NCBI GenBank assembly: GCA_028279595.1
Contig: JANQNK010000016.1
Coordinates: forward strand, 1-60,585
Source: Thermoplasmatota archaeon
Lineage (GTDB): Archaea; Thermoplasmatota; JAKEGO01
DNA length: 60,585 bases
Reading direction: 5' to 3'
Shown: positions 1 through 39,027 of the stretch, in pieces
How the letters are laid out: every line of letters starts with the position of its first letter
Position numbering within the stretch: the stretch's first letter is position 1
Notes under the pieces: generated by a model
Databases searched by the model: none
Told to the model about the DNA's origin: nothing
Seen by the model: only the letters and a program-made list of their open reading frames with translations
Translations under genes and position numbers: made by a program

Positions 1-136
1 CCCGTGTCTCAGAAAAACGAACTCCTATGTAAGATCCTTGCATATAATATCACCGTGCTAATCCATGAGATGGTTGGGGAGCGGATTATGATAGAGTTAC
101 GTGATTATTAAAAGTCGTTCAAATTAAAAAAGCAAA

Positions 137-589
137 TTAACGCCATTCTAAAATAAACTTCTTCTTAACATTCCTGACAGAGTTTTGAATCTGAATACCA
201 GTGTTTTCTGTAAACGGAACTTTTGTTGAGTCAGGAAGGTGAAAGCAGATTCGTAAATTAGTAGGAATGTTCTGTTCGACCTTAAGGTGATAACTTCGTT
301 TAGGCACAACCTTCCGATGATTTTTTAAATCGATGATCTCCAGTTTACTGCCATGAATTTTCGAGAAGAACGATCCCGAAATCTTTCCAATCGAGTAAAT
401 GATCACATCTCCCCGTCCCGAAGATAATCGTACATCAAAACGATATTCACGAGTTCCGACGGCAGAATGATTCCGACGGCATTTTGGTTTAAAAGTAACC
501 TTAAAGGTTTTACGTGTAGTATAAATATATAGTAATAGTGAGATTGTTCCCACAATGGCACCATATAATGCTAAAGGGTCGTTTTCCAT
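137..589 (-). CDS. hypothetical protein with N-terminal transmembrane anchor (AT-rich region)
   Basis: 150-aa ORF with hydrophobic N-terminus (LALYGAIVGTISLLLYIY). SD-like GGGTGG lies upstream. The sequence is much more AT-rich than the rest of the window. Confidence 0.6.
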   Translation of the reverse strand: MENDPLALYGAIVGTISLLLYIYTTRKTFKVTFKPKCRRNHSAVGTREYRFDVRLSSGRGDVIIYSIGKISGSFFSKIHGSKLEIIDLKNHRKVVPKRSYHLKVEQNIPTNLRICFHLPDSTKVPFTENTGIQIQNSVRNVKKKFILEWR

Positions 590-601
590 TAATCCACCCG
601 C

Positions 602-829
602 CTAATTCTTATCAAATTTTGGTTTGCACGTATGATCTTCGTAATTGATGGTTAATTCCTCTTTTGAGAATTTAACCCTCTCTTTACCGAGACCATTCCG
701 TTTTTCAAAGACACAGTATGTTTTTCCGTCATAATCTGTGATACAATCTACACTGGAATATTCTTCTCCATGAAGCGTTAGAATAAAGCGTTGTTTCTTG
801 TTGTTATCGCCCATGGAACTCCCTTTCAT
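602..829 (-). CDS. small hypothetical protein
   Basis: 75-aa ORF co-directional with and 12 nt upstream of 137..589. The start may instead be the second Met (MGDNNK), which follows GGGAG. Confidence 0.5.
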   Translation of the reverse strand: MKGSSMGDNNKKQRFILTLHGEEYSSVDCITDYDGKTYCVFEKRNGLGKERVKFSKEELTINYEDHTCKPKFDKN

Positions 830-1032
830 ATTGATTTATGAATATAAGTAGATTAGCATTGAATATGTGAATGATTCTACTTGAAATTAGTACATTCTCC
901 CCTATTGTTTCACCTCAAACCTCATTGTACGATCAATATAAAGCGATATTGACCTTTTTTTTACACGCCGGTGACATCCGGCAATTTGAGGTATAAACCC
1001 AATTAACCTTATATCCTTGAAACCATTGTAAT

Positions 1033-1263
1033 ATGTTGATGCGGGAAACCGGATCAACAAAACGCATTGCGCTCGTGTTGTCTCCTATACTTCTGTTGTT
1101 ATACTTCTTTTCCGGAGTCATTTCATGGTCTTTTGCTGTGTATTTAATATTCAATGAGGCCGATATCCTCCAAATCGTTGCTGCGGTCACGTTTGGAACC
1201 CTTTTTCTTGGAAAATCAGGAAAGATGATTCGGGACGAACTGTCTCCCCAGAATGCAATGTGA
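1033..1263 (+). CDS. small two-TM membrane protein
   Basis: Two hydrophobic stretches in a 76-aa ORF. TATA-like CTTATA lies at about 1008. Confidence 0.4.
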   Translation: MLMRETGSTKRIALVLSPILLLLYFFSGVISWSFAVYLIFNEADILQIVAAVTFGTLFLGKSGKMIRDELSPQNAM

Positions 1264-1461
1264 TTCTGCACTTAAACTCCGAATCCTGCCCCTAAAGTAC
1301 TCATCGAATGTGACTTTAAGGGCAAACCCGCCCACCACGGCCTTGCCCTATTATTAGGTACAATTGGAGGACTCTATTGAAAAAATGCGAATTTTTCTTG
1401 CAAAGTCCCGCAGATTATTTAAAGTTTGAAGTTGTGTGATATTTGTCACGTGGGGATTAAC

Positions 1462-1671
1462 ATGGTGTACGTATCAAGAATTCCGGGGGTGTGTGCCGGT
1501 TGTGGGAGCGGTCCGCTCATATTGTGTCGTTGGTGCATGTATTGTACCGAATGTAAGATCGACGAACTGTCTGGAGCGGGACGGAGATACCAGCCCACCG
1601 TCCACGACCTCATCATTCCGAGATATGATGACTCCATTCCAGATTATGACGACGATACCTCCCAGCTCTGA
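1462..1671 (+). CDS. small Cys-rich (zinc-finger-like) protein
   Basis: Motif CAGC-x7-CRWCMYCTEC. I prefer ATG 1462 to TTG 1426 because a TATA-like TTATTTAAAG at about 1416-1424 and GGGGA precede it. Confidence 0.5.
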   Translation: MVYVSRIPGVCAGCGSGPLILCRWCMYCTECKIDELSGAGRRYQPTVHDLIIPRYDDSIPDYDDDTSQL

Positions 1672-1872
1672 GCACGACCGCCGACCCTGATACGGCGACC
1701 GACCCATATCATCACCGATCCTCCCCGCGGGTCACCCCAACTTAATTCTGCACTCAAGGTCGTCAATAATAACACCTCGGGTGCAAGGCCGCCAACCCCC
1801 TCGATACCGATCCGCGAACCTATTAAGTATCCTTCATCTCTTCGGATAACTGGACACAAGGGGGACACTGCC

Positions 1873-2271
1873 ATGAAGAAGGTAGCCATAATCCTGAGAT
1901 CGTGCGATTACGAGAGCGCCATGTCAGCCTTCATGCTCGCGAATTCCTCCGCCATACTCGGCTCCGAGGTTCACATCTACATGATCTTCAGGGGCGTCAG
2001 GATCGCGAAGAAGGGCTTCAAACCGAAGTTTACACGTCCAATGGGGCCATTGACCAATGCGTTCGAGCGACGCATCAAGAAACAGGGATTCGACACCTTC
2101 CAGGAGCAGCTGGACGTTGCCCGCGAGCTCGGCGTGAAGCTCCACGTATGCGACCTCTGCGTAAGGATAGGGCTTCTCAAGAAGGAACAGCTCATCGACG
2201 GCGTCGACATAATAGGAATGCCCAGGTTCGCAGAACTCGCCGAAGAGAGCGACTCGCAGTTCTCGTTCTGA
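1873..2271 (+). CDS. DsrE/DsrF-like (DsrE2-type) sulfur-relay protein
   Basis: MKKVAII...AFMLANSSAILGSEVHIYMIFRGV...GVKLHVCDLC...LIDGVDIIG matches the DsrE fold pattern. Confidence 0.8.
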   Translation: MKKVAIILRSCDYESAMSAFMLANSSAILGSEVHIYMIFRGVRIAKKGFKPKFTRPMGPLTNAFERRIKKQGFDTFQEQLDVARELGVKLHVCDLCVRIGLLKKEQLIDGVDIIGMPRFAELAEESDSQFSF

Positions 2272-18835: not shown

Positions 18836-18921
18836 CGCAGAGGGAGGGATTTGAACCCCCGTGGTGCTGGGCACCACCGGCTCTCAAGGCCGGCGCCTTG
18901 GCCGGGCTAGGCTACCTCTGC
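18836..18921 (-). tRNA. tRNA-Ser (anticodon UGA)
   Basis: Acceptor stem GCAGAGG/CCTCTGC, anticodon arm CCGGC-CTTGAGA-GCCGG, long variable arm, GGTTCAAATCC T-arm and discriminator G. No CCA is encoded. BRE/TATA AAAAGATTTTTAT lies upstream. Confidence 0.93.
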
Positions 18922-29991: not shown

Positions 29992-30180
29992 TCAGGTCCT
30001 GGCCTTCTTCGGACCCACCTTGATGGCGAACTGGGGGCAGATCTCGCTGCACAGTCCGCAGCTCGCGCATTTCCTGGAATTAACGATCGCAACGACCTCG
30101 ACGTGGACCGCGGCCACCGGGCAGATGTCCATGCAGGCGCCGCATCCGGCGCACTTGGCCTTGTTTATCCTGGCAGTCAA
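29992..30180 (-). CDS. 2x[4Fe-4S] ferredoxin
   Basis: CAGCGACMDICP and CASCGLCSEICP. TTG start after GGAGGT. Confidence 0.9.
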   Translation of the reverse strand: MTARINKAKCAGCGACMDICPVAAVHVEVVAIVNSRKCASCGLCSEICPQFAIKVGPKKART

Positions 30181-30186
30181 TGTCGC

Positions 30187-31200
30187 CTACCTCCAGATCC
30201 CCATGGTCCTGTCGGTCATGTCGATGCTTGTCTGCGGGTCGTTCTGGATCTGCAGCATGGCCCTGATGCAGTCCACGTTCTCGGGAATGACATCGGACTC
30301 CTGGTGCACCGCCTGGAAGAAGTAGAGGACACCATGGTCCACGTGGACTCCGTCGCGCCAGATGGCGATCTCGTAGAGGTCGGAGAAAGGCCTGTTCAGG
30401 TCCCGGGCCATCTCCATGACCTGGGCGGTGGAACCCATCCCCTTGAACCCGTCTATCAGCATGAGACGCCTGTACGGCTCCCAGAGCGAGATGACCTCCT
30501 CGGGGGTCACATCCCTCGTGAGGTAGACCGCGTTGGCATGCATGTGCATGATGGTCGTCGGCACCTTCACGGCAACGGTATTGATGTGTATGTCCGGTAT
30601 CACCGTCAACACGTCGGGTCCGTGGTGGGACGGCACCTTGAGGGACGGCTCTATTGCGTTTATCGGACCCCTCTTCGAGTCCCCGGGGTCCGCGGACCTC
30701 CGGATCATGGTCGCGAGGACGTTCCGGACGAGCCCCTCCTTGTGGAGCGGGTAGAGCGAGCGTGCCAGACCGGTTGTGTTGCACGATACGACGCGAACGT
30801 GGTCCTGTCCTATCGCCTGCTCGTAGCAGGTATATGCGTTGAAGCTGACTCCAGCGGTCCCATGCTTCTCACCGCCCTGGTAGATCGCCTTGGTCCCTTT
30901 CGATCTGTACAGTTCGGCCATCTGGGCCCCGAACTTGCCGGGAGTGCAGTCGACCACTAGGTCGGCCTCCTCGATCAGTTCCTCCTGTGTTCCCGAGACC
31001 TCGAGACCGGCCTCCTCGAGCACGGGGACGCGCTCGGCCGGTGTGAACAGCTTGAAACCGTTCCGGAGTGCCTCCCACGCCTCGTAGGTCGGCCTCGTCT
31101 TGGTCACACCGATGATCTCCATGTCCTTCTGGAGCGTCACCGCGTTGGCTACCCTCTTTCCGATGGTCCCGTATCCGTTGATGGCGATCTTCGCGCTCAT
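30187..31200 (-). CDS. gap: archaeal type II glyceraldehyde-3-phosphate dehydrogenase
   Basis: INGYGTIGKRVA, VVSCNTTGL, SHHGPDV, and HQESDVIPENVDCIRAM. Confidence 0.96.
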   Translation of the reverse strand: MSAKIAINGYGTIGKRVANAVTLQKDMEIIGVTKTRPTYEAWEALRNGFKLFTPAERVPVLEEAGLEVSGTQEELIEEADLVVDCTPGKFGAQMAELYRSKGTKAIYQGGEKHGTAGVSFNAYTCYEQAIGQDHVRVVSCNTTGLARSLYPLHKEGLVRNVLATMIRRSADPGDSKRGPINAIEPSLKVPSHHGPDVLTVIPDIHINTVAVKVPTTIMHMHANAVYLTRDVTPEEVISLWEPYRRLMLIDGFKGMGSTAQVMEMARDLNRPFSDLYEIAIWRDGVHVDHGVLYFFQAVHQESDVIPENVDCIRAMLQIQNDPQTSIDMTDRTMGIWR

Positions 31201-31267
31201 GCACAAGCCTCCGGTCGAGTATCCGTGGGTGATATAAAAAGTTAGCCGAAGTCCGCTCCCTTCGCGG

Positions 31268-31957
31268 TCACTCTAGTTCGACGTATATCCGCTTGTTCCT
31301 CGCTCCCTTGCTCTTGTACTCCGCGAGCACCATGGTCCCGATCTCCGAGGTGTTCGCGACGTGGGTCCCGCCGTCCGCCTGGACGTCGAAGCCCTCGATC
31401 TCGACGGTCCTGATCTCGTCGTACTTCTCGTAGAGGTGGTGGGCCACCCTCATGAGCTCCGGGTTCTTCGCGAACTCCTCCTTCGAAATGATCCTCGTCG
31501 TGACTGTAAGACCCCGGGCAGCGGCCTCGTTGCTCTTGTCGATGATCTCCTGGGCTAGCTCCCTCGTCATGTTGTCGAAGGAGAGGTCCAGCCTCCCTCT
31601 TGCGGGATAGAGCTGGTTGCCGGTAATGTCGACGTTGTACTGCTTGTACGCGATCCCATCGATCACATGCAGGCATGTGTGTGCCCTCATTATCTGATGG
31701 CGGCGCTCCCAGTCGATGGTCCCCCTGACGGCCGTTCCGACCGACGGCCTGTCACCCTCGATGGTCAGTGCCTCTCCGGCCCCGCCCGTGACCTCGCACT
31801 CACCACCGTCCCAAACGAGCTTGCCGGTGTCCGCGGGCTGCCCTCCTCCTCCGGGGTAGAAGGCCGAACGGTCGAGAGTGACCCTGCCCTCTTCGACAGA
31901 GACGACTGTCGCGTCGAACTCCCTCATGTACTGGTCCTCGAGATAGAGTCGGTCCAT
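31268..31957 (-). CDS. alaX: AlaX-M alanyl-tRNA editing protein
   Basis: LYLEDQY, FYPGGGGQP.DTG, MRAHTCLH, and GGTHV.NT.EIG. The usual CGGTH reads DGGTH here. Confidence 0.88.
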   Translation of the reverse strand: MDRLYLEDQYMREFDATVVSVEEGRVTLDRSAFYPGGGGQPADTGKLVWDGGECEVTGGAGEALTIEGDRPSVGTAVRGTIDWERRHQIMRAHTCLHVIDGIAYKQYNVDITGNQLYPARGRLDLSFDNMTRELAQEIIDKSNEAAARGLTVTTRIISKEEFAKNPELMRVAHHLYEKYDEIRTVEIEGFDVQADGGTHVANTSEIGTMVLAEYKSKGARNKRIYVELE

Positions 31958-32159
31958 GTCCTCGAATCCCGGCATCCGTAAATCAACCTTTCGGAAACCG
32001 CGCTCGATCCCGTCCCATTGGGGGATCGACGCGCTTCGGATATCCTGAAATTGATGCGAGCGGGGAAGGCTTCGAGGACGATAGCGGCGCATCCAATGCT
32101 CTCGCTGGCAGGATACAATAAGTGAGTTTCGATTTTCGTCAGTCGTTATCGAGTCCAGT

Positions 32160-33125
32160 TCACTCGAGTTCCTCATCGTCGATGAGGTCCTTCAGTGCGA
32201 TCTTGACCTGGGTCTCGAGCTTGGTCTGCTGCTGCTTCAGCTGCTTGACGTCCCTCTTGATGTCCAGCAGGCCGTCGTACGTCTTCGAGATGACCTCCTC
32301 GAGGCCGAGGCCGGCCATGGTCGTCTCCTTGTACTCGAGCATGATGGGATGCCCCTTCTCCACGGTCTCCGCGAGGTCCTTGAAGGCCTCGACCATGTCC
32401 GCAAAGCCGCCTTCCATGCGGATATTCTCGAGCTCCAGGTAGTCCGCGGCTTCCATCTTCCTCGGGTTCACGAGCTTGAAGAGCTTCATGTAGTGGTCGA
32501 GCTGATCGATCTTCTTCGGCCTGACCTTGGAGGGATCGAAGACGAGGGCGACCGCGTTGGGATTCAATATCTGGTAGCCCGCATGGTTCACCCTGTCGAT
32601 GGTGGATAGGAATAGGTCGTGGCCAGGGTGCGTATGGTACCAACCGACGACCCAAAGGTCATCGGAGAGGGTAGCGTTGATCTCGTCCGAGGTCCTGTAG
32701 TGCTCGGAGGTAAAGCGGACCTCGACCTTGCTCCCGTTGGTGACCGGAACCGCGTCCTTGATGATGATCATGTTGTCGTCATCGACGTCGCCGAGGAGGA
32801 ATCCCATGCACTCGACCCATTTGCTCTGCTCGATGGCCGCATTGCAGAAACGGAATCCGTGCCTGAGTATCTTCCCCAGGGCCCTGTGGTGGATGACCGC
32901 GTCCGCTGGTTCGGTCTCCTTGCACTCGAAGTCTCCCTTGTCGTCGCCCTTGCCCTTTCCAGCGGACTTCTTCGGGACCGCCTTCTTGGGGGGCGTCTTC
33001 TTCGCCGTCGTCTTCTTTTCCGTCGTCTTCTTCTCCGTCTTCGGCGGAGTGCCCTTCTTGCCTACTGTCGACGTCGACGGCTTGGCTACCTTCTTTGAGG
33101 TTCCCTTCTTCTCGTCATCTGGCAT
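32160..33125 (-). CDS. Rpn11/Csn5-like JAMM/MPN+ isopeptidase with Lys-rich N-tail and C-terminal coiled coil
   Basis: ALGKILRHG...VECMGFLLG and VVGWYHTHPGHDLFLSTID (E...HxH-x7-S-x2-D), followed by AVALVFDP. Confidence 0.92.
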   Translation of the reverse strand: MPDDEKKGTSKKVAKPSTSTVGKKGTPPKTEKKTTEKKTTAKKTPPKKAVPKKSAGKGKGDDKGDFECKETEPADAVIHHRALGKILRHGFRFCNAAIEQSKWVECMGFLLGDVDDDNMIIIKDAVPVTNGSKVEVRFTSEHYRTSDEINATLSDDLWVVGWYHTHPGHDLFLSTIDRVNHAGYQILNPNAVALVFDPSKVRPKKIDQLDHYMKLFKLVNPRKMEAADYLELENIRMEGGFADMVEAFKDLAETVEKGHPIMLEYKETTMAGLGLEEVISKTYDGLLDIKRDVKQLKQQQTKLETQVKIALKDLIDDEELE

Positions 33126-33651
33126 ATCGATCAGTCATCTCCTTGGCCTTGGTAATGAATCCGTTCTGATCCTCCAGGTACTGCTTCGCCGAGTCCTCGT
33201 TCAACGGGTCGGCCGGATTGAAGAACGGAGGGAACATGTGGATCATGAGTTTCATCGCCTCGAGCAGCATGACTATGTCACGGGTCGGGGTCCAACCGGC
33301 CGTCTGGGTGGTCGGGTCGACCTTTCCCACGCGTCTCGGATCGATGATGTCGAAGCAGACGTTGTCACGCCATGAGTTCTTGGTCGGAGGGGTCCTGCCG
33401 AGCGCAATGTTCGGGTGCCATATTGGCGTGTGGCAGAACACCCCGGGCGGGCTGAAGGGATAGTCGGAGAACATCTTGATCTCGAAGACGAACTGGCCGC
33501 CAGCGTACGGGGTCCCTGCCGCGCCCTTGATCACGACCTGCATGTGACCGACGAAGTTGTCGCCGGGCCAGATGTCGATCTCGACGTAGGGGTCCTCGTC
33601 GTAGGCGCTGAGCGCCTCGAAGTAGTCCGCTTCTATCCTCTCGTAGTTCAT
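33115..33651 (-). CDS. E2 ubiquitin-conjugating enzyme (UBC fold)
   Basis: IKG..GTPYAGG.F.F.I.....YPFSPP...TPIWHPNI...VCFDII...WTP...NP.DPLN..SA..Y. True start MNYER overlaps the E1 stop (ATGA). Confidence 0.93.
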   Translation of the reverse strand: MNYERIEADYFEALSAYDEDPYVEIDIWPGDNFVGHMQVVIKGAAGTPYAGGQFVFEIKMFSDYPFSPPGVFCHTPIWHPNIALGRTPPTKNSWRDNVCFDIIDPRRVGKVDPTTQTAGWTPTRDIVMLLEAMKLMIHMFPPFFNPADPLNEDSAKQYLEDQNGFITKAKEMTDRYAR

Positions 33652-34880
33652 CCCTCTCCCTCCTTGACCGTTACCTCTATGCTCGTCCGCTCGCCGTCGA
33701 CCTTGTAGCTGATCCTCAGGCCGTCGCCGCTCCTCACTCCGACGCCGGCAAGGTCGGCCTCGACATCGCCCTTCCCGAAGTTGGAGACGACGGCTCCGTC
33801 CGATGTCCTCGTGATGAGGGCCTTCTCGGCCGGAACTCCCATTCCGTCTATCGCATCCAGGAGGCCTCCGAGGGTCCATGATGCGAGCGGCAGCTCGTCG
33901 CCCGCCGTCCTGGAGCACGACTGGCATGCGGGATCGATCTCGATCTCAACAGGAGTGAGTATCCCGTACTGCGAGCTGTACTCGATGTACGTCGGATCCA
34001 TCGGAGGACCGATGTCCCTACCCTTAATCCTGTGAAGGACCTTAAGGGCTTCGTGCGATTGCAGCGATGCCACCACTGCATTGACCGTGATCACTGACGG
34101 GAGTTTGTTCATCAACAGGTTCTCCACCTCGGGGGCGGTGAACGTCCATTCGTCAGTGTGTGGGGAATCCACGGAGGCGTCGTGGGCAAGCCCGGCTATG
34201 ATCTCGAGGTCCTCGACCGAGTACTCCTCCCGTTTCCCGTGGGCCTTGATGAAGGCCTCCTCGCCCTTGATGATGCAGTGGTCCCGGGTCCGTGCATGGC
34301 CGGGAACCGTGCACGCGGCTGCCGCAGCTCCGTCTGCCGGCGGGATCGGATAGAAGCATTTGAGGCAGGCGGTCCTCTCGGCCACATTCTCCACCCCGGG
34401 AGGAACGATCACCTGGACGTTGCCCTTGAATCCTGTTGCCGCAGAATCGATGTATACCTTACCGAGCCGCCACGCCAGCTCGTTCAGCTGGAACCTTGCC
34501 TCGAACGAGTCCAATCCGCCGAGGATGAGGTCGAGGTCCTCGTAGACCTCGATGGGCAGGTCCTGGAACTTGCCCTCGTGCGGTATCACCTCGACGTCTG
34601 GATTCGCGTTGGCTATCCACTCCGCGGCCACCGCCGCCTTGTATCTGCCCGTATCGGACTCCCTGAAAAGCAATTGCCGTGAAAGGTTGGACATCTCGAT
34701 GATGTCCATGTCCACGAGATGCATCGTTCCGACCCCGGCCAGGGCTAGGTTCTTGGCGATCTCGCAGCCCAACGCTCCAACGCCGACTACCATCACCGAT
34801 GAATTACGAAGCGCCTCCTGGTCCCATCCCTCCAGAAGGAGGTGTCTCGCGTAACGGAAGGCCTCGGTCTCCTCGGCCAT
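33648..34880 (-). CDS. E1 ubiquitin-activating enzyme (UBA3/UBA2-like)
   Basis: GVGALG, DMDIIEMSNLSRQLLF, LDSFEAR, Zn pairs CLKC/CQSC, catalytic CT-x9-HC (CTVPGHARTRDHC), and C-terminal UFD-like LAGVGVRSGDGLRI. Confidence 0.92.
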   Translation of the reverse strand: MAEETEAFRYARHLLLEGWDQEALRNSSVMVVGVGALGCEIAKNLALAGVGTMHLVDMDIIEMSNLSRQLLFRESDTGRYKAAVAAEWIANANPDVEVIPHEGKFQDLPIEVYEDLDLILGGLDSFEARFQLNELAWRLGKVYIDSAATGFKGNVQVIVPPGVENVAERTACLKCFYPIPPADGAAAAACTVPGHARTRDHCIIKGEEAFIKAHGKREEYSVEDLEIIAGLAHDASVDSPHTDEWTFTAPEVENLLMNKLPSVITVNAVVASLQSHEALKVLHRIKGRDIGPPMDPTYIEYSSQYGILTPVEIEIDPACQSCSRTAGDELPLASWTLGGLLDAIDGMGVPAEKALITRTSDGAVVSNFGKGDVEADLAGVGVRSGDGLRISYKVDGERTSIEVTVKEGEG

Positions 34881-34895
34881 GTCACGCACACCCTA

Positions 34896-35162
34896 TCATC
34901 GTCCGCCGGCCTGCTGACTGATGACCGTGATGGTGTCCTTCTTGGCGTTGTACTTCATCTTGTCTAGGAATTTGGAGAACACCTCTCTGTCCCGGATCGG
35001 ATGCCCCTTGAAGACGAGCTGGATGACGAGACGGTCGCTGATCTTGTACTGGCGCCGGACGAGCTTCTTGGCGTCGCCGCAAGTCGCCTTGGCCGGGATC
35101 GCGATCTTCTTCGTTCCCTGTTTCGGGGGCAGACCCATCATTCTGAAGGTATATTCTGGCAT
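34896..35162 (-). CDS. ubiquitin-like protein, pro-form ending ...QQAGG-R
   Basis: 88 aa. ATCGDAKKLV and QLVFKGHPI align with Ub DTIENVKAKI and RLIFAGKQL. The di-Gly is followed by one Arg and tandem stops. It has its own BRE/TATA. Confidence 0.85.
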   Translation of the reverse strand: MPEYTFRMMGLPPKQGTKKIAIPAKATCGDAKKLVRRQYKISDRLVIQLVFKGHPIRDREVFSKFLDKMKYNAKKDTITVISQQAGGR

Positions 35163-35193
35163 GTTCTCACTCGTGGATAATTCGGGAACCCAA

Positions 35194-35213
35194 TATTTAA
35201 ATTGATTGGTTTT
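35194..35213 (-). promoter_or_regulatory. BRE/TATA promoter of the ubiquitin operon
   Basis: On the minus strand AAAACCAATCAA-TTTAAATA ends 32 nt upstream of the Ubl ATG. Confidence 0.65.
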
Positions 35214-35281
35214 GACGTAAACGACCGGGGTCTGGACAGCCGAGGTAGGCCTCCGAATTCGTGGGGAACATGTCCCTCGGT

Positions 35282-36643
35282 CTAAGCCCTGAAGACGACC
35301 TCCCCGTCGATTATCGTCATGACGACCTGGCCATCTGGCACGTCCCCTGTCAGGACCACGAGGTCGCTGGCCTTCCCTGTATCTATCGATCCGACCTTTC
35401 CCTCCATCATCCCGGCAAAGGCACCGCCACCCGTGTATGCCGTTACGGCCTGTTCGACGGTCAACCGTGCGTTCGCATCGGGATGTTCGAGAGCCCCCTT
35501 CAACCCGAAGAGCGGTCCGATAGGCATGCAGTCCGACCCGAAGGCCAGGCTGCAGTCCAGTCCCTTCCTGTAATTGTTCGCTGTGACGTATCTCGCGCCG
35601 AGGGCTGATTCGTACATCCCTCCGGGCATCCCCCAGTTGACGGTGAAGTTGGGCTGCATCGACGCCACGACGCCGAGCTCTCGCATGGCACTCCAGGCAG
35701 GGCCCGGCACCAGCTCCAGATGCTCGATCCTGGGCCTCGTCATCTCGTGGCTCCCGGCGACCTCGGTGTACGCCTCGACGACGTTCTGAACGGCGGCATC
35801 CCCGAGGGCATGGGTCATCACCTGGAGGCCGAGCTCGGTCGCCCTCATGGCGTGCTCGACGATCGAATCCCTCTCCATGTATGGGCCTCCCCGACTGCCG
35901 TCCGTATAGTCCTCGAGCATCCAGGCAGTCCTGGATCCTATCGATCCGTCGGAGAACAGCTTGATCCCCTCGAAGTCCTCGTGACGCCCGACCGGCTCGT
36001 CCTCCGTGACCCTGTACCCCCTCCACTTCAGAGGGGTCCCGGAGCGCTTCAGGGGCGTGAGGTCGTGCGTGATCTCGTGAACCGTCGTTATCCCCAGGGA
36101 CAACGCAGTATCCGCTCCATGGGTGGCCGCCTCTATCCTTCCCTCGGGACCGGGATCGAATATGTGGAACAGCTCGAGGGCTCCCTTCTCCGACACCCCG
36201 TCGTCCTCTACCGCTCGAGGATGATCCTCCTCGATCAACCTCAACGCCGCCTCGTTGGCGACAGCCTTGTGGCCGCAAACCCGTCTGAGCGCGACCGGGA
36301 AGTCGAACTCCTCGAGGTCATTGGTCCTGATATCATCGGGCCATCCCGATTCATCGTAGTCGATGCCGATGAAAGGTCCCTCGCTTCCCGATATGCGTGA
36401 GATCACATCCGACCATGAGTCCGCATTCCCGAGGTCCGTCGTGAACAGCCTGAGCCCCCAGGCCTGGATGTGCGTATGTGCGTCGATGAACCCCGGAAGC
36501 AGGAGGCCTCCGTCGAGGTCTATGACCTCGTGTCCTGTTGGCTTCGTCACCCCCATTCCGATGTCCTCGATGACCCCCTCGGTCGAAACGAGCGAGTCCC
36601 CGAGACGGGACCTGAAGTTCGTGAGGTATAGGTCGCCTCCCAT
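35282..36643 (-). CDS. amidohydrolase 3 (YtcJ-like)
   Basis: IDLDG.LLLPGFIDAHTH, KLFSDGSIG, HALGD, RIEH, and FGSD. Confidence 0.9.
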   Translation of the reverse strand: MGGDLYLTNFRSRLGDSLVSTEGVIEDIGMGVTKPTGHEVIDLDGGLLLPGFIDAHTHIQAWGLRLFTTDLGNADSWSDVISRISGSEGPFIGIDYDESGWPDDIRTNDLEEFDFPVALRRVCGHKAVANEAALRLIEEDHPRAVEDDGVSEKGALELFHIFDPGPEGRIEAATHGADTALSLGITTVHEITHDLTPLKRSGTPLKWRGYRVTEDEPVGRHEDFEGIKLFSDGSIGSRTAWMLEDYTDGSRGGPYMERDSIVEHAMRATELGLQVMTHALGDAAVQNVVEAYTEVAGSHEMTRPRIEHLELVPGPAWSAMRELGVVASMQPNFTVNWGMPGGMYESALGARYVTANNYRKGLDCSLAFGSDCMPIGPLFGLKGALEHPDANARLTVEQAVTAYTGGGAFAGMMEGKVGSIDTGKASDLVVLTGDVPDGQVVMTIIDGEVVFRA

Positions 36644-36741
36644 GGGAGCGAAGCCGTCTACCCGGATAAAACCCCATCGATTCCCCCTGACATCCACAAT
36701 CCTAAATAGTGAGTCAGCATATTCCCGACGGGGGTAGTTCG

Positions 36742-37470
36742 ATGGATGTCGAGATCTCGGAACTCTCATTCGCCTACGCACTTATGGAGGAGATAATGGG
36801 CTCCATCGAGTCCGAGGCAGACGTGACGTCACTCGGCTCCGGTCTGTTCGACTGGGTATCCCTCGACAGCGACGAGATGAGACGGGGCATCTCGGTGTTC
36901 CTCCACTTCAAGCGACCGGAACTGATGGTCATGGCCACCGCGGCCGAGTGGGAGGACTACGGAAAACCCTACTTCAGGATAACCATCCCGAGGCGCGTCA
37001 AGTCCAACATCCACCGGATGCTCAGGTCCGTGGCGAAGCTCGAACCCGCCACATTCTACGTCGTGCCACTCTTCCAGAGCCAGCAGGAGCTCGACCGACT
37101 GCATCTCATGCGCGGGATCATGGGAGCCACTGCCTTCATTCCCGCCTCGCTCCTCGCCAACATAGATGACAAGGAGCATCACATCACGGGAACGAACCCC
37201 GCCGACCTGAAACTCGATGGCGAACCCCTTGAGGGGGTCCTCACGGGGGATATGTTCACGGCCGAGGTCCTGAGCCAACTCGCCGACGATCAGCGCCTTG
37301 CCCTGATCAACCGGGGGTACCTTCAGAGACAGTACAGGACCCTGCACACCGCCATATTCCCGGGTTCGGCCGCCGATCCCGCCTCCGATTCCGCGTCCAT
37401 CGCCGATGCCATCTCCCGGCTCATGCGGATCTACCTCGGCGGGGAGACCCTCGTCGTGATGAGGAAGTGA
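36742..37470 (+). CDS. hypothetical protein, possible divergent restriction-endonuclease-like fold
   Basis: ISELSFAYAL...FD...VFLHFKRPE...YFRI...FYVVPLF pattern with native codon usage. Confidence 0.55.
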   Translation: MDVEISELSFAYALMEEIMGSIESEADVTSLGSGLFDWVSLDSDEMRRGISVFLHFKRPELMVMATAAEWEDYGKPYFRITIPRRVKSNIHRMLRSVAKLEPATFYVVPLFQSQQELDRLHLMRGIMGATAFIPASLLANIDDKEHHITGTNPADLKLDGEPLEGVLTGDMFTAEVLSQLADDQRLALINRGYLQRQYRTLHTAIFPGSAADPASDSASIADAISRLMRIYLGGETLVVMRK

Positions 37471-37560
37471 GTCCTCGTTGATGGGTCGTCAATTCTCAAG
37501 CCAGTACTGCCATTACACTGGGGAAAAGGATAATATGGTCATACCCTCTCTCACTCTCCG

Positions 37561-37965
37561 ATGACCAAGACGAGATACAAGACGGCTGCGATACTCGCGA
37601 TCGTTGCAGGAGTGCTCCTGCTGATATCCGGGATCGCCGGCGCAGGGACATGGCAATCGCTCAAGGAAGGGTTCGAGGAGAACGTGATGGAGCTCGACTC
37701 CACCATGGAGCTCGTGTTCAACATCATCATCGCACTCGGCGCCCTGGGCGGTCTGTTGGTCATATTCGCAGGACTCCTCCTGATGAAGGGATTGAAGCGC
37801 ACCGCAAGGATACTGATCACCATCGGTGTCGGCATCGGTCTGATAGGTTTCATCATCGCCCTCCTGGTCGCGATGCACAACGACGATATGGTCTCCTTCC
37901 TCTCGCCGACCACCGGACTGATCGGCATAGTCCTGTCGATCGTCGCACGGATGATGGCGAAGTGA
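37561..37965 (+). CDS. four-TM membrane protein
   Basis: Four hydrophobic helices. Confidence 0.75.
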   Translation: MTKTRYKTAAILAIVAGVLLLISGIAGAGTWQSLKEGFEENVMELDSTMELVFNIIIALGALGGLLVIFAGLLLMKGLKRTARILITIGVGIGLIGFIIALLVAMHNDDMVSFLSPTTGLIGIVLSIVARMMAK

Positions 37966-37974
37966 GATGATACC

Positions 37975-39027
37975 ATGCTGGGTGTTGTGCTCGCCGGCGG
38001 AAAGGGCATGCGGCTACGGCCGCTGACCGAGATGAGGCCGAAACCGTTCGTCCCCATCCTCGGAAGACCCTGCATCGATTATGCACTCGACCTCTACGAC
38101 AGCATAGGCATACGGGAGGTCATGATGACGACCTTCTACAAGCCCGAGATGCTGATCGCCCACCTCGGCGGCGGGCTGTCCCGCAACATGTGCATGGTCT
38201 ACTCCATCGAGGACGAGGCCATGGGAACGGCCGGGGGCATCGCCAAGGTCAAGAAGTTCATCAACGAAAGGTTCGTCGTGGTCAGCGGTGACCTCTTCGT
38301 GGACGCCGACCTCAGCGACCTGGTGGCGTTCCACGACAAGAGCGGGGCCGCGGTCACGATGGCCCTCACCGAGGTCGTGAACCCCGTCGAGTACGGCATC
38401 GTCGGCCTCGACGACGACGGGAGGATCGACAGGTTCAAGGAGAAGCCGAAGGAGTCCGAGGTCTTCTCCAATCTAATCAACGCCGGGATATACGTGATCG
38501 AACCCGAGGTCCTCGACCTAGTCCCCGAGGGGAAGAAGTTCGACTTCTCGCGGGACCTGTTCCCACTACTGCGCGAGGAGGGCTCCCTCTTCGGCCGTAA
38601 CCTCGAGGGCATATGGATGGACATCGGGCGCCCGGAGGACCTCCTGCGGGCCAACCGCGAGGAGGCGCGCAAGAAGTTGAGGGAGGCGGACGGCGATCTG
38701 GACAAGAGCGGCCTCATCCACCCGGATGCGGTGATAAAGGGAACGCTCAAGGGCACCCCGTTCATCGCGAAGGGTGTCACAGTGGCCCGGGATGCCGTCG
38801 TGGAGGACTCCTACGTCCTGCCCGGCTCCCGGATCGGAAAGGCTTCCACCGTCACAAACAGCCTCCTACTCGAGAACTCCATGCTTGAGGACCGCTCCAC
38901 CGTTCGTGACACCATACTCGGAGCTGGTACCAAGGTCGAGAACGATTCGAAGCTCGAGGAATGCGTCCTGGGCGACGGGTCCCACGTCCCTGGCGGCTCG
39001 TGGCTCGTCTGCCAGAAGAAGGTGTGA
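37975..39027 (+). CDS. NDP-sugar pyrophosphorylase (mannose-1-P guanylyltransferase-like)
   Basis: LAGGKGMRLRPLT..RPKP, GTAGG, EKP, INAGIY, W.DIG, and a C-terminal beta-helix. Confidence 0.92.
   Translation: MLGVVLAGGKGMRLRPLTEMRPKPFVPILGRPCIDYALDLYDSIGIREVMMTTFYKPEMLIAHLGGGLSRNMCMVYSIEDEAMGTAGGIAKVKKFINERFVVVSGDLFVDADLSDLVAFHDKSGAAVTMALTEVVNPVEYGIVGLDDDGRIDRFKEKPKESEVFSNLINAGIYVIEPEVLDLVPEGKKFDFSRDLFPLLREEGSLFGRNLEGIWMDIGRPEDLLRANREEARKKLREADGDLDKSGLIHPDAVIKGTLKGTPFIAKGVTVARDAVVEDSYVLPGSRIGKASTVTNSLLLENSMLEDRSTVRDTILGAGTKVENDSKLEECVLGDGSHVPGGSWLVCQKKV

What the first reader, a model, noticed from the sequence alone, without database searches (positions are those of the whole stretch)
32160..35213. 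Complete eukaryote-like ubiquitylation operon (Ub-E1-E2-JAMM) in an archaeon that does not look Asgard
SEEN: four tightly linked minus-strand genes under one BRE/TATA promoter. They are Ubl (35162-34896), E1 (34880-33648), E2 (33651-33115, ATGA-coupled) and JAMM (33125-32160, overlapping). The Ubl and E2 are buried in longer spurious ORF calls. KNOWN: ordinary archaeal SAMP/Urm1 systems use a MoeB-like E1 and no E2. E2-containing, eukaryote-type sets are described from Caldiarchaeum subterraneum and Asgard archaea. Every component here has eukaryote-type signatures (UBA3-like CT-x9-HC, UBC HPN...C...W, Rpn11-like VVGWYHxHPG). INFERENCE: the surrounding genes look Thermoplasmatota-like, and the operon has the same high-GC3 usage as its housekeeping neighbours. 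This suggests a long-resident true conjugation cascade in an unexpected lineage. It could serve proteostasis or antiviral defence, by analogy with bacterial E1-E2-JAB systems.
Basis: partly seen in the sequence, partly recalled or inferred. Interest (0 to 1): 0.95.

Follow-up and report, generated by a model that had tools for sequence, protein, structure and literature searches.

The report
Asgard-type ubiquitin operon in Thermoplasmatota
A coral-associated archaeon of the phylum Thermoplasmatota carries a complete, native-looking ubiquitin-tagging kit (ubiquitin-like protein, E1, E2, Rpn11-like protease, plus a likely RING-type E3 elsewhere in its genome) of the kind known from Asgard archaea and Caldiarchaeum. 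This extends a known system to a new lineage; it is not a new kind of system.

Summary
Four tightly coupled minus-strand genes encode a ubiquitin-fold protein ending GG-R, a UBA3-like E1 (catalytic Cys190, C-terminal ubiquitin-fold domain), a UBC E2 (HPN, Cys99) and an Rpn11-like JAMM protease.

The host is Thermoplasmatota, in a GTDB class of only three species genomes. All three carry the operon. GC3, synteny and divergence match the housekeeping neighbours.

The nearest relatives outside this class and a metagenomic sister clade are Asgard proteins. They share E2 insertions and the Ub-E1-E2-JAB gene order. AU tests cannot settle transfer against old inheritance.

- E2-bearing Ubl operons are not rare here: 94 of 401 sampled Thermoplasmatota genomes have a UQ_con E2. 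That is a different, short-E1 type.
- Nothing supports a defence role.

One addition: an unlinked 437-aa RING / 3xRWD / RBX1-like RING-H2 protein is the likely E3. Its homologue sits directly after the JAMM gene in the sister-clade operons.

Verdict: a new member of a known kind, of moderate interest.

The parts
35194..35201 (-). TATA-like box TTTAAATA, 32 nt upstream of the Ubl start. A GAGTGAG Shine-Dalgarno-like stretch lies just before the ATG.
   Evidence: Sequence read directly. Relatives carry a GGTGAG-type SD at the same place. Promoter function is inferred, not tested.
34896..35162 (-). Pro-ubiquitin-like protein, 88 aa: beta-grasp fold, 13 Lys, C-terminus QQAGG followed by one Arg.
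   Evidence: Translation. No Pfam or PDB sequence hit. It is 31% identical (E 2e-9) to a Hodarchaeota protein that hits Pfam ubiquitin. AF2 model has pLDDT 90. Foldseek top hits are ubiquitin, NEDD8, SUMO2 and Caldiarchaeum Ub, with TM 0.75-0.79. The five Thermoplasmata-type relatives aligned all end QQAGG plus 1-4 extra residues; the Hodarchaeota row in that alignment ends IGA.
33648..34880 (-). Single-chain UBA3-like E1, 410 aa: adenylation domain, Zn site C172/C175/C319/C322, catalytic Cys190 in a flexible loop before a helical Cys domain, and a C-terminal domain (about 325-410) that lies where the ubiquitin-fold domain of UBA3 does.
   Evidence: Pfam ThiF 1.2e-55. PDB sequence hits: yeast Uba1 5e-35, UBA3 1.6e-32 over residues 25-324, MoeB only 4.6e-22. 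The five Cys are invariant in 39 Thermoplasmata and Asgard homologues. AF2 model has pLDDT 85. Foldseek's ten best hits are all UBA3 over about 360-456 alignment columns, then SAE2; ThiF first appears at rank 29.
33115..33651 (-). UBC-type E2, 178 aa: HPN 79-81, catalytic Cys99, Trp120. It has loop insertions between HPN and Cys and between Cys and Trp.
   Evidence: Pfam UQ_con 2.4e-21. PDB hits UBE2S, UBC13 and UBE2T at about 1e-13 to 1e-14. H79, P80, N81 and C99 are invariant in relatives. The insertions are shared with Asgard E2s and are absent from eukaryotic and short-type Thermoplasmatota E2s.
32160..33125 (-). Rpn11-like JAMM/MPN+ metalloprotease, 321 aa: Lys/Pro/Thr-rich N-terminal tail (about 1-75), MPN+ core with E105, H164, H166, S174 and D177, and a helical C-terminal region.
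   Evidence: Pfam JAB (PF01398) 3.3e-14. Best PDB hit is yeast Rpn11, 2.8e-13, aligned over residues 80-310 including the C-terminal helices. The Caldiarchaeum Rpn11 homologue scores 5.7e-10. Motif positions.

Best explanation
This is a working ubiquitin-like protein conjugation cascade of the Asgard/Aigarchaeota (eukaryote-like) type, carried natively by a small, deep class of Thermoplasmatota.

Proposed mechanism (every enzymatic step is inferred, none is shown):
1. The 88-aa pro-Ubl is trimmed by the Rpn11-like JAMM protease. This removes the terminal Arg and exposes Gly-Gly.
2. The UBA3-like E1 adenylates that Gly with ATP and takes it as a thioester on Cys190.
3. The E1's C-terminal ubiquitin-fold domain recruits the E2, and the Ubl passes to E2 Cys99.
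4. A RING-type E3 then promotes transfer to substrate lysines. The most likely E3 is the unlinked 437-aa RING / 3xRWD / RBX1-like RING-H2 protein at G000:C18:30056-31366.
5. The same JAMM enzyme can reverse the mark.

The most likely role is housekeeping protein regulation or quality control, possibly feeding the 20S proteasome that the genome also encodes.

Origin: the set shares ancestry with the Asgard clusters. I put transfer between Asgard and this lineage at about 0.55-0.6, against older vertical inheritance.
For: Domain identities and catalytic residues.

Folds: Ubl matches ubiquitin, NEDD8 and SUMO. E1 matches UBA3 over its full length.

Translational coupling: a 15-nt gap, an ATGA overlap and an 11-nt overlap.

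Conservation:
- The operon is in all three genomes of the class.
- Identities G000 vs G001 / G002: E2 76 / 72%, JAMM 52 / 42%, E1 53% (G002), Ubl 75% (G002). MCM is 76 / 59%.
- The GG end plus a short cap is kept in all five Thermoplasmata-type relatives aligned.

Native status:
- GC3 equals that of the neighbours.
- E2-JAMM-AlaX-GAPDH-PPDK-MCM are syntenic on an independently assembled contig of G001.
- Depth is an even 20-22x across the operon in the coral metagenome, which may be the source sample and so is not independent.

Asgard kinship:
- Next-best E2 hits are Hodarchaeota, Sigynarchaeota and Lokiarchaeota.
- E1 is 41-48% identical to Loki/Promethearchaeota.
- A Hodarchaeota locus has the order Ub-E1-x-E2-x-JAB-x-RING.
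- E2 tree: a 98/99 starred clade joins the window with Asgard sequences. The E2 insertions are shared.

E3 candidate:
- Pfam RWD is over its cut-off and RING_2 is weak.
- There are eight invariant Zn ligands at the N-terminus and an invariant Cys/His cluster at the C-terminus.
- The C-terminal finger matches APC11/RBX1 and the RWD region matches GCN2/RNF25 in a profile search of PDB, at about 1e-3.
- It was found in G000, G001 and G002 only, out of 41 genomes.
- Its homologue (BLASTP 1e-39) is the gene directly after JAB in the sister-clade contigs L055, L056 and L057.

Separate housekeeping parts exist: a second short ThiF, a second small JAB, and 20S alpha and beta subunits.

The biochemistry of the homologous Caldiarchaeum system, including Rpn11 trimming of a pro-Ub, is published (PMC5654768, PMC6043591).
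Against: - There is no expression or biochemical data for this organism, which is an uncultured MAG 86% complete.
- The Ubl is not recognised by Pfam ubiquitin.
- No E3 lies in the operon. The E3 assignment rests on synteny in a sister clade and on weak RING scores.
- The second half of E1 alone (150-410) has no significant PDB sequence hit, so the Cys-domain and UFD assignment rests on the AF2 model and on invariant Cys residues.
- Origin is unresolved. AU tests do not reject Asgard E2s forming their own clade apart from the window's (p 0.083). They also do not reject all Thermoplasmatota E2s or E1s being on one side (p 0.109 and 0.122).
Confidence: 0.8

Rival explanations
1. It is an anti-virus or conflict system, like bacterial Bil or type II CBASS Cap2/Cap3. 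There, E1/E2/JAB enzymes tag viral proteins or prime a signalling enzyme.
For: - PADLOC 'E1-E2' (Cap2) models hit the E1 Rossmann part at up to 3.6e-18, BilD at 1.2e-10 and JAB models at 4e-7.
- Some metagenomic relatives of this E2 are fused to TIR or to weakly HEPN-like regions (P0020 and P0010).
Against: - The PADLOC hits cover only the shared adenylation fold. The E2 and the Ubl have no PADLOC hit.
- There is no CD-NTase, effector or other defence gene nearby. The neighbours are AlaX, GAPDH, PPDK, MCM, CysRS and an amidohydrolase.
- The position is conserved between genera, and the operon is present in every genome of the class. Defence islands are usually patchy.
- E1 and E2 are separate proteins, and both are closest to Asgard and eukaryotic enzymes.
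Confidence: 0.08
2. It is a sulfur-carrier or SAMP-type system: a MoeB/UbaA-like E1 with a ThiS/MoaD-like carrier. In that case the E2-like and JAB genes would be accessory or inactive.
For: - NCBIfam ThiF/MoeB/UbaA models hit E1 residues 1-190 at 1e-30 to 1e-40, all far below their cut-offs.
- Archaeal SAMPs also end in GG.
Against: - E1 scores better against Uba1 and UBA3 than against MoeB.
- Its fold matches UBA3 over the full length, with an invariant extra Cys and a C-terminal domain that MoeB lacks.
- An intact E2 with HPN and Cys is translationally coupled to it.
- The genome has a separate short ThiF and a separate small JAB for that job.
Confidence: 0.03
3. It is an artefact: an Asgard contig or fragment wrongly binned or chimerically joined into a Thermoplasmatota MAG.
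For: - The closest outside relatives of E1 and E2 are Asgard.
- Logan unitigs of the source run break inside the operon at 33157-33186.
Against: - The operon sits mid-contig among archaeal housekeeping genes whose best matches are in the same class. MCM is 76% identical to G001, 59% to G002 and 41-45% to other Thermoplasmatota.
- An independently assembled MAG that NCBI names Thermoplasmata archaeon has E2-JAMM followed by the same genes, through to MCM, on one contig.
- G002 has the full operon.
- GC3 is the same as the flanks.
- The two unitigs overlap by 30 nt with zero mismatches and similar depth, 22.4 and 19.8.
Confidence: 0.02
4. Same function, different history: the set was inherited vertically from an early archaeal ancestor and lost in most Thermoplasmatota, rather than being exchanged with Asgard.
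For: - AU tests do not reject Asgard sequences forming their own clade apart from the Thermoplasmata clade.
- In the E1 tree the Thermoplasmata-type clade (15 rows, support 99) stands beside two Asgard clades, not inside them.
- Another Ubl-E2-JAB operon type is widespread in the phylum.
- The E3 gene lies next to pheT in G002, and the whole operon lies near pheT in the sister clade. This hints at an old shared arrangement.
Against: - The long-E1 type was found in only 2 of 401 sampled genomes of the phylum. Vertical descent would need very many losses.
- The E2 groups inside an Asgard-containing clade in the free tree, and it shares derived insertions with Asgard E2s.
Confidence: 0.3

Closest known systems
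Caldiarchaeum subterraneum ubiquitylation operon (Nunoura 2011, PMC3082918; Hennell James 2017, PMC5654768; Fuchs 2018, PMC6043591)
   Same: - A GG-ended ubiquitin-fold modifier made as a pro-form.
- An E1 with a catalytic Cys, a UBC E2 and an Rpn11-like JAMM, all clustered.
- The Caldiarchaeum Rpn11 homologue and Ub appear among the sequence and fold hits.
   Different: - That operon carries a small RING-finger E3. Here no E3 lies in the operon, and the candidate is a 437-aa RING / 3xRWD / RING-H2 protein on another contig.
- The JAMM here has a long Lys-rich N-terminal tail and Rpn11-like C-terminal helices.
- The host phylum differs.
Asgard ubiquitin clusters, e.g. the Hodarchaeota MAG GCA_016840025.1 locus (L048)
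   Same: - Same gene order: Ub, E1 (418 aa), E2, JAB, then RING proteins.
- Ubl 31% identical, E1 32%, E2 34%, JAB 32%.
- Shared E2 loop insertions.
   Different: - The Asgard locus has extra genes interleaved (LRR, HDAC) and classic RING_2 proteins.
- The Asgard Ub is recognised by Pfam ubiquitin; the window's is not.
- The Thermoplasmata sequences form their own clade.
Eukaryotic NEDD8 pathway (UBA3-APPBP1, UBC12/UBE2F, RBX1, CSN5/Rpn11)
   Same: - E1 fold and length match UBA3.
- UBE2F is among the E2 hits.
- The candidate E3's C-terminal finger resembles RBX1/APC11.
- The JAMM is nearest Rpn11 and CSN5.
   Different: - There is a single E1 gene and no APPBP1-like partner, so the E1 is presumably a homodimer.
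- No cullin was identified near the operon (not specifically searched).
- Identities are only about 25%.
Widespread Thermoplasmatota short-type operon (short E1 of about 235-300 aa, Ubl ending ...PDPEGG, E2 of about 165 aa, JAB of about 200 aa)
   Same: Same four functions, the same phylum and the same Pfam families.
   Different: - Its E1 is short, at ThiF/MoeB length with no room for the window E1's catalytic-Cys insert and C-terminal domain.
- Its E2 lacks the insertions and forms a distant clade.
- Its Ubl tail motif is different.
- G000 does not carry this type; it has a single UQ_con hit.
Bacterial Bil (BilABCD) and type II CBASS Cap2/Cap3
   Same: The E1, E2 and JAB chemistry.
   Different: Those are defence-island systems. 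Cap2 is a fused E1-E2. They show only fold-level similarity here, and the window's E2 has no PADLOC hit.
Haloferax SAMP/UbaA/HvJAMM1 system
   Same: A GG-ended beta-grasp modifier, a ThiF-family E1 and a JAMM protease.
   Different: That system has no E2 and no catalytic-Cys or UFD domains. The genome has a separate candidate set for it.

Membership tests
Eukaryote-like archaeal ubiquitylation cluster (Asgard/Aigarchaeota type) | Beta-grasp modifier with a C-terminal Gly-Gly | tested here: met
   Ends QQAGG-R. AF2 model has pLDDT 90 and matches ubiquitin, NEDD8 and SUMO with TM 0.75-0.79. The GG is kept in all five Thermoplasmata-type relatives aligned.
Eukaryote-like archaeal ubiquitylation cluster (Asgard/Aigarchaeota type) | Canonical-type E1: adenylation domain plus catalytic-Cys domain plus C-terminal ubiquitin-fold domain | tested here: met
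   Foldseek's ten best hits are all UBA3 over about 360-456 alignment columns. Cys190 is invariant in 39 homologues. Residues 328-407 are modelled as strands and helices. This rests on a predicted structure, not a solved one.
Eukaryote-like archaeal ubiquitylation cluster (Asgard/Aigarchaeota type) | UBC-fold E2 with HPN and a catalytic Cys | tested here: met
   Pfam UQ_con 76 bits against a cut-off of 27. H79, P80, N81 and C99 are invariant.
Eukaryote-like archaeal ubiquitylation cluster (Asgard/Aigarchaeota type) | Rpn11-like JAMM/MPN+ protease with an E...HxH...S..D motif | tested here: met
   Pfam JAB 53 bits. Best PDB hit is yeast Rpn11. E105, H164, H166, S174 and D177 are present.
Eukaryote-like archaeal ubiquitylation cluster (Asgard/Aigarchaeota type) | RING-type E3 associated with the cluster | tested here: inconclusive
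   There is none in the operon. A RING-RWD-RING-H2 protein lies on contig C18. Its homologue is adjacent to JAB in the sister clade. RING_2 scores are below the Pfam cut-off.
Eukaryote-like archaeal ubiquitylation cluster (Asgard/Aigarchaeota type) | ATP-dependent E1~Ubl and E2~Ubl thioesters and isopeptide conjugates | not testable with these tools
   This needs biochemistry.
SAMP/UbaA (E2-independent archaeal sampylation) | MoeB-sized E1 without a Cys domain or UFD, and no E2 | tested here: not met
   The E1 is 410 aa and UBA3-like. An E2 is translationally coupled to it.
Bil / type II CBASS E1-E2-JAB defence systems | Fused Cap2-type E1-E2 or BilB-type E2, together with a CD-NTase or a defence-island context | tested here: not met
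   The E2 has no PADLOC hit, and the E1 hits cover only the Rossmann part. The neighbours are housekeeping genes.
Short-type Thermoplasmatota Ubl-E2-JAB-E1 operon | Short E1 (about 235-300 aa), Ubl ending PDPEGG, compact E2 without loop insertions | tested here: not met
   The E2s fall in separate clades in the free tree, although an AU test does not reject joining them.

The most novel reading that the evidence does not exclude
The cascade, including a RING / RWDx3 / RBX1-APC11-like RING-H2 ligase, is an old archaeal inheritance kept by this deep Thermoplasmatota class and its sister clade. On this reading a full E1-E2-E3-DUB system, with a forerunner of FANCL/RBX1-style RWD-RING ligases, predates Asgard archaea rather than originating in them.
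Probability: 0.12. Interest if true: 0.8.

Novelty: new member of a known kind. Interest (0 to 1): 0.55.

Why it matters
It shows that a complete eukaryote-like ubiquitin cascade is stably kept outside Asgard and TACK archaea, in a euryarchaeal-grade lineage. That set comprises a UBA3-like E1 with a ubiquitin-fold domain, a UBC E2, an Rpn11-like protease and probably a RING-RWD E3.

It separates two different Ubl-E2 systems within Thermoplasmatota. One of them is common (about a quarter of sampled genomes) and is barely mentioned in the papers I could search.

It also points to an unannotated family of large RING-RWD-RING-H2 proteins as archaeal E3 candidates. These proteins are small and soluble-looking, so they could be reconstituted in vitro to study how minimal E1-E2-E3 systems work.

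Tried and rejected
- **Complex prediction.** Complex prediction of the E2 (A4) with the RING-RWD protein (A3) gave no verdict: median 0.31 against a mark of 0.32. I do not use it either way.
- **RNA runs.** No RNA holder was listed for the stretch, so nothing can be said on expression.
- **Second run.** Run X2 (marine sediment) holds only a small share. One 312-nt contig is about 91% identical to part of the E2 gene. That is too little to name a habitat.
- **Sequence searches that found nothing useful.**
  - PDB with the Ubl.
  - PDB with E1 residues 150-410.
  - Pfam ubiquitin in the whole genome.
- **Genome-collection scan.** The search for related loci in genome contigs with the E2 alignment returned a single locus. 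That was enough to get an NCBI organism name but not a distribution.
- **Asgard handle.** The Hodarchaeota genome behind L048 is not held as a handle, so housekeeping identities to an Asgard genome could not be compared.
- **Word-indexed search with P0157** found only close relatives. Atlas feature hits (Promethearchaeota RWD/UQ_con proteins, FANCL, listerin) score below 0.9 and are leads only.
- **AU tests** on the E2 and E1 trees do not settle whether the Thermoplasmata clade is nested in Asgard.
- **Rejected after testing:** Thermoproteota as host. I first guessed it from genome sizes. AmoA was absent and McrA present in family f4.
- **Literature.** I searched the held library with six term sets and read five papers. 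Only one preprint mentions a Thermoplasmatota E2 clade.

Full report
**What is in the sequence**

- The Ubl (35162-34896) is 88 aa and ends QQAGG-R.
- Fifteen bases later the E1 begins (34880-33648, 410 aa).
- The E2 start overlaps the E1 stop as ATGA (33651-33115, 178 aa).
- The JAMM gene (33125-32160, 321 aa) overlaps the E2 by 11 nt.

Pfam gives ThiF 1.2e-55, UQ_con 2.4e-21 and JAB (the eukaryote-type PF01398) 3.3e-14. The Ubl has no significant family hit. A TTTAAATA box lies 32 nt before the Ubl ATG, with a Shine-Dalgarno-like GAGTGAG in between. That it is the operon's single promoter is an inference.

**Each protein, tested**

*E1.*
- Its best solved relatives by sequence are yeast Uba1 (5e-35) and UBA3 (1.6e-32, one collinear stretch over residues 25-324). 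MoeB and ThiF score 4.6e-22 or worse.
- In an alignment of 39 Thermoplasmata and Asgard homologues the invariant cysteines are C172, C175, C319 and C322 (the Zn site) and C190. C202 is nearly invariant.
- An AlphaFold model built from that alignment has pLDDT 85. Its ten best Foldseek hits are all UBA3, over about 360-456 alignment columns at 24-27% identity. SAE2 follows, and ThiF first appears at rank 29.
- The loop carrying C190 has low confidence, as expected for a mobile catalytic loop. Residues 328-407 are modelled as strands and helices, where UBA3 has its ubiquitin-fold domain.
- The second half alone gives no PDB sequence hit, so this part rests on the model.

*E2.* Its best PDB hits are UBE2S, UBC13 and UBE2T at about 1e-13 to 1e-14. 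H79-P-N81, C99 and W120 are conserved.

*JAMM.* Its best hit is yeast Rpn11 (2.8e-13), aligned from residue 80 to 310, so it includes the C-terminal helices. Next come the Caldiarchaeum Rpn11 homologue, CSN5 and AMSH. The E...HxH...S..D motif is complete.

*Ubl.* There is no sequence hit in PDB.
- It is 31% identical (E 2e-9) to the Pfam-positive ubiquitin of a Hodarchaeota cluster.
- Its model (pLDDT 90) matches ubiquitin, NEDD8, SUMO2 and Caldiarchaeum Ub at TM 0.75-0.79.
- All five Thermoplasmata-type relatives aligned keep QQAGG followed by one to four extra residues; the Hodarchaeota ubiquitin in that alignment ends IGA. The protein is therefore made as a pro-form.

**Whose genome is it**

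The window is a whole 60.6-kb contig of a 2.29-Mb, 86%-complete MAG.
- Its phylum includes a family of 1.2-2.2-Mb genomes that carry McrA and lack AmoA. That fits Methanomassiliicoccales within Thermoplasmatota.
- NCBI names the same-family MAG 'Thermoplasmata archaeon PMV_4.75'.
- The GTDB class holds only three species genomes.
- The contig carries MCM, CysRS, PPDK, PorB and ArcS.
- MCM is 76% identical to G001, 59% to G002 and 41-45% to other Thermoplasmatota.
- The only run that holds the whole stretch, and probably its source, is a coral metagenome. A study of coral-skeleton MAGs reports four Thermoplasmatota MAGs, recovered from Porites lutea, and does not mention this system.

**Native or foreign**

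GC3 of the four genes (0.78-0.86) equals that of most tested neighbours (0.75-0.87; PorB is lower at 0.60).

G001 was assembled independently. It has E2-JAMM-AlaX-GAPDH-ferredoxin-PPDK and, further along the same contig, MCM, in the same order. Its contig ends 44 nt before the E2, so its E1 and Ubl are simply cut off. G002 has the full Ubl-E1-E2-JAMM set.

Identities track the housekeeping genes:

| Protein | G000 vs G001 | G000 vs G002 |
|---|---|---|
| E2 | 76% | 72% |
| JAMM | 52% | 42% |
| E1 | (cut off) | 53% |
| Ubl | (cut off) | 75% |
| MCM | 76% | 59% |

In the coral run two unitigs cover 30000-38000 with no mismatch and depths of 22.4 and 19.8. They meet in a 30-nt overlap at 33157-33186. 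This may be the source data, so it is not independent evidence.

I see no sign of chimerism. Within the class the operon behaves as a vertically inherited, selected gene set.

**How it relates to other systems**

First, E2 genes are common in this phylum. PF00179 is found over its cut-off in 94 of 401 sampled genomes (95 at E <= 0.001), across many families. In the loci I inspected it usually sits beside a JAB gene of about 200 aa, and often beside a short E1 (about 235-300 aa) and a roughly 80-aa Ubl ending ...PDPEGG. That type is distinct from the window's:
- the short E1 is of ThiF/MoeB length, with no room for the catalytic-Cys insert and C-terminal domain;
- the E2s form a separate clade;
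- the E2s lack the two loop insertions of the window's E2.

Second, the window's type is rare in the phylum and looks Asgard-like. The long E1 was found in only 2 of 401 sampled genomes. Outside the class there is a metagenomic sister clade with about 50% identical E1s. Some of these NCBI labels Thermoplasmata or Methanomassiliicoccales. Their operon reads KaiC-like ATPase, Ubl, E1, E2, JAB. Beyond that come Asgard proteins:
- E1 of Loki/Promethearchaeota at 41-48% identity, and of Hod- and Helarchaeota at 37-39%.
- E2 of Hod-, Sigyn- and Lokiarchaeota.
- A Hodarchaeota locus reads Ub, E1 (418 aa), LRR, E2, HDAC, JAB, x, RING.

In the E2 tree the window falls in a starred clade (98/99) with Asgard sequences. 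Eukaryotic E2s lie outside it and the short-type clade is far away. The loop insertions are shared only with the Asgard E2s. In the E1 tree the Thermoplasmata clade (support 99) stands beside two Asgard clades.

AU tests do not reject Asgard monophyly apart from the window's clade (p 0.083). They also do not reject a single Thermoplasmatota side (p 0.109 for E2, 0.122 for E1). The kinship with Asgard clusters is therefore well supported by similarity, architecture, gene order and indels. The direction and age of the relationship are not resolved. On parsimony of distribution I favour transfer between Asgard and the ancestor of these lineages, at about 0.55-0.6.

**The missing E3**

No RING gene lies in the operon. 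A Pfam RING_2 scan of the genome gave one weak hit. It lies in a 437-aa protein at G000:C18:30056-31366 (P0157).
- It has an N-terminal cross-brace finger with eight invariant ligands.
- It has three modules with the YP..P loop of the UBC/RWD fold. Pfam RWD scores 27.6 bits, over its cut-off.
- It has a C-terminal cluster, C-x2-C-x4-C-x2-C...C-x2-C-x4-H-x-H-C...C-x2-C.
- A profile of the family hits APC11 and RBX1 with the C-terminal finger, and GCN2 and RNF25 RWD domains with the last module, at about 1e-3.
- The protein is present in G000, G001 and G002, and in none of 38 other relatives searched.
- The gene immediately after JAB in the sister-clade contigs L055, L056 and L057 is a 671-674-aa homologue with one more module (BLASTP 1e-39).

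That gene neighbourhood is the main reason I propose P0157 as the cognate E3. A complex prediction with the E2 gave no verdict. I reached it independently through the RING scan and added the synteny link.

**Function**

The genome separately encodes a short ThiF, a small JAB, and 20S proteasome alpha and beta subunits. The operon is therefore an addition to the usual archaeal kit, not a replacement for it.

Context is housekeeping and stable, and there is no defence gene nearby. PADLOC hits are limited to the generic E1 and JAB folds. I therefore favour a protein regulation or quality-control role, and I put defence at under 0.1.

**Known or new**

- The Caldiarchaeum system is reconstituted and the Asgard clusters are described.
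- NCBI's pipeline already labels the G001 E2 as a ubiquitin-conjugating enzyme.
- One preprint notes a deep 'Thermoplasmatota E2' clade from InterPro data.
- I found no paper in the held library that describes a complete cluster in Thermoplasmatota, the two operon types, or the RING-RWD ligase family.

This is a new member of a known kind, with a possibly new E3 variant attached.

Noticed in passing
L035:5529-7533 (G244), also L029-L034, L041 and others: A second, common Ubl system in Thermoplasmatota: short E1 (about 260 aa), Ubl of about 80 aa ending ...PDPEGG(x), UQ_con E2 of about 165 aa and PF01398 JAB of about 200 aa, in a tight operon. PF00179 is over its cut-off in 94 of 401 sampled genomes, including McrA-bearing ones. 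I found almost nothing on it in the papers searched.
   Followed up: partly
G000:C18:30056-31366 (L059:1501-2814): A 437-aa RING-like / 3xRWD / RBX1-APC11-like RING-H2 protein that is specific to the class. Its homologue follows JAB in the sister-clade operons L055, L056 and L057. It is the likely E3 and is annotated 'hypothetical' at NCBI.
   Followed up: yes
G000:C18, L059:2866-4254: The gene directly after the RING-RWD gene encodes a 462-aa membrane protein. It has an N-terminal zinc ribbon, a Pro/Lys-rich linker, a CarboxypepD_reg beta-sandwich, several TM helices and a C-terminal RING-like finger (Prok-RING_1 weak, 1.3e-4). It may be a membrane-anchored second ligase.
   Followed up: partly
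P0020 (534 aa) and P0010 (399 aa; L049:6001-7200): Metagenomic relatives of this E2 are fused to other domains. P0020 is TIR-RWD-UQ_con. P0010 is UQ_con followed by a region with weak HEPN/PaREP1 matches. These hint that some members of the E2 clade sit in conflict systems.
   Followed up: no
L055:5910-6629 and L057:5905-6624: In the sister clade a KaiC-family ATPase (Pfam 6.6e-44) lies directly upstream of the Ubl gene, on the same strand. There is no counterpart next to the window's operon.
   Followed up: no
G002:C101:1013-5162; L055:2114-12090: pheT lies next to the E3 homologue in G002, and about 3 kb upstream of the whole Ubl-E1-E2-JAB-E3 cluster in the sister clade. This suggests an older joint arrangement that was later split.
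   Followed up: no
window 1-2000: The first 2 kb of the contig has 42.5% GC against about 60% elsewhere, and holds only short ORFs. There is no Rfam hit there. The only RNA gene in the window is a tRNA at 18836-18921.
   Followed up: partly
window 31268-32176: The AlaX-like ORF is listed as overlapping the JAMM gene, but the overlap is probably over-called. The homologue in G001 aligns only from residue 70, so the real start is likely near 31969. That leaves about 190 nt after the JAMM stop.
   Followed up: partly
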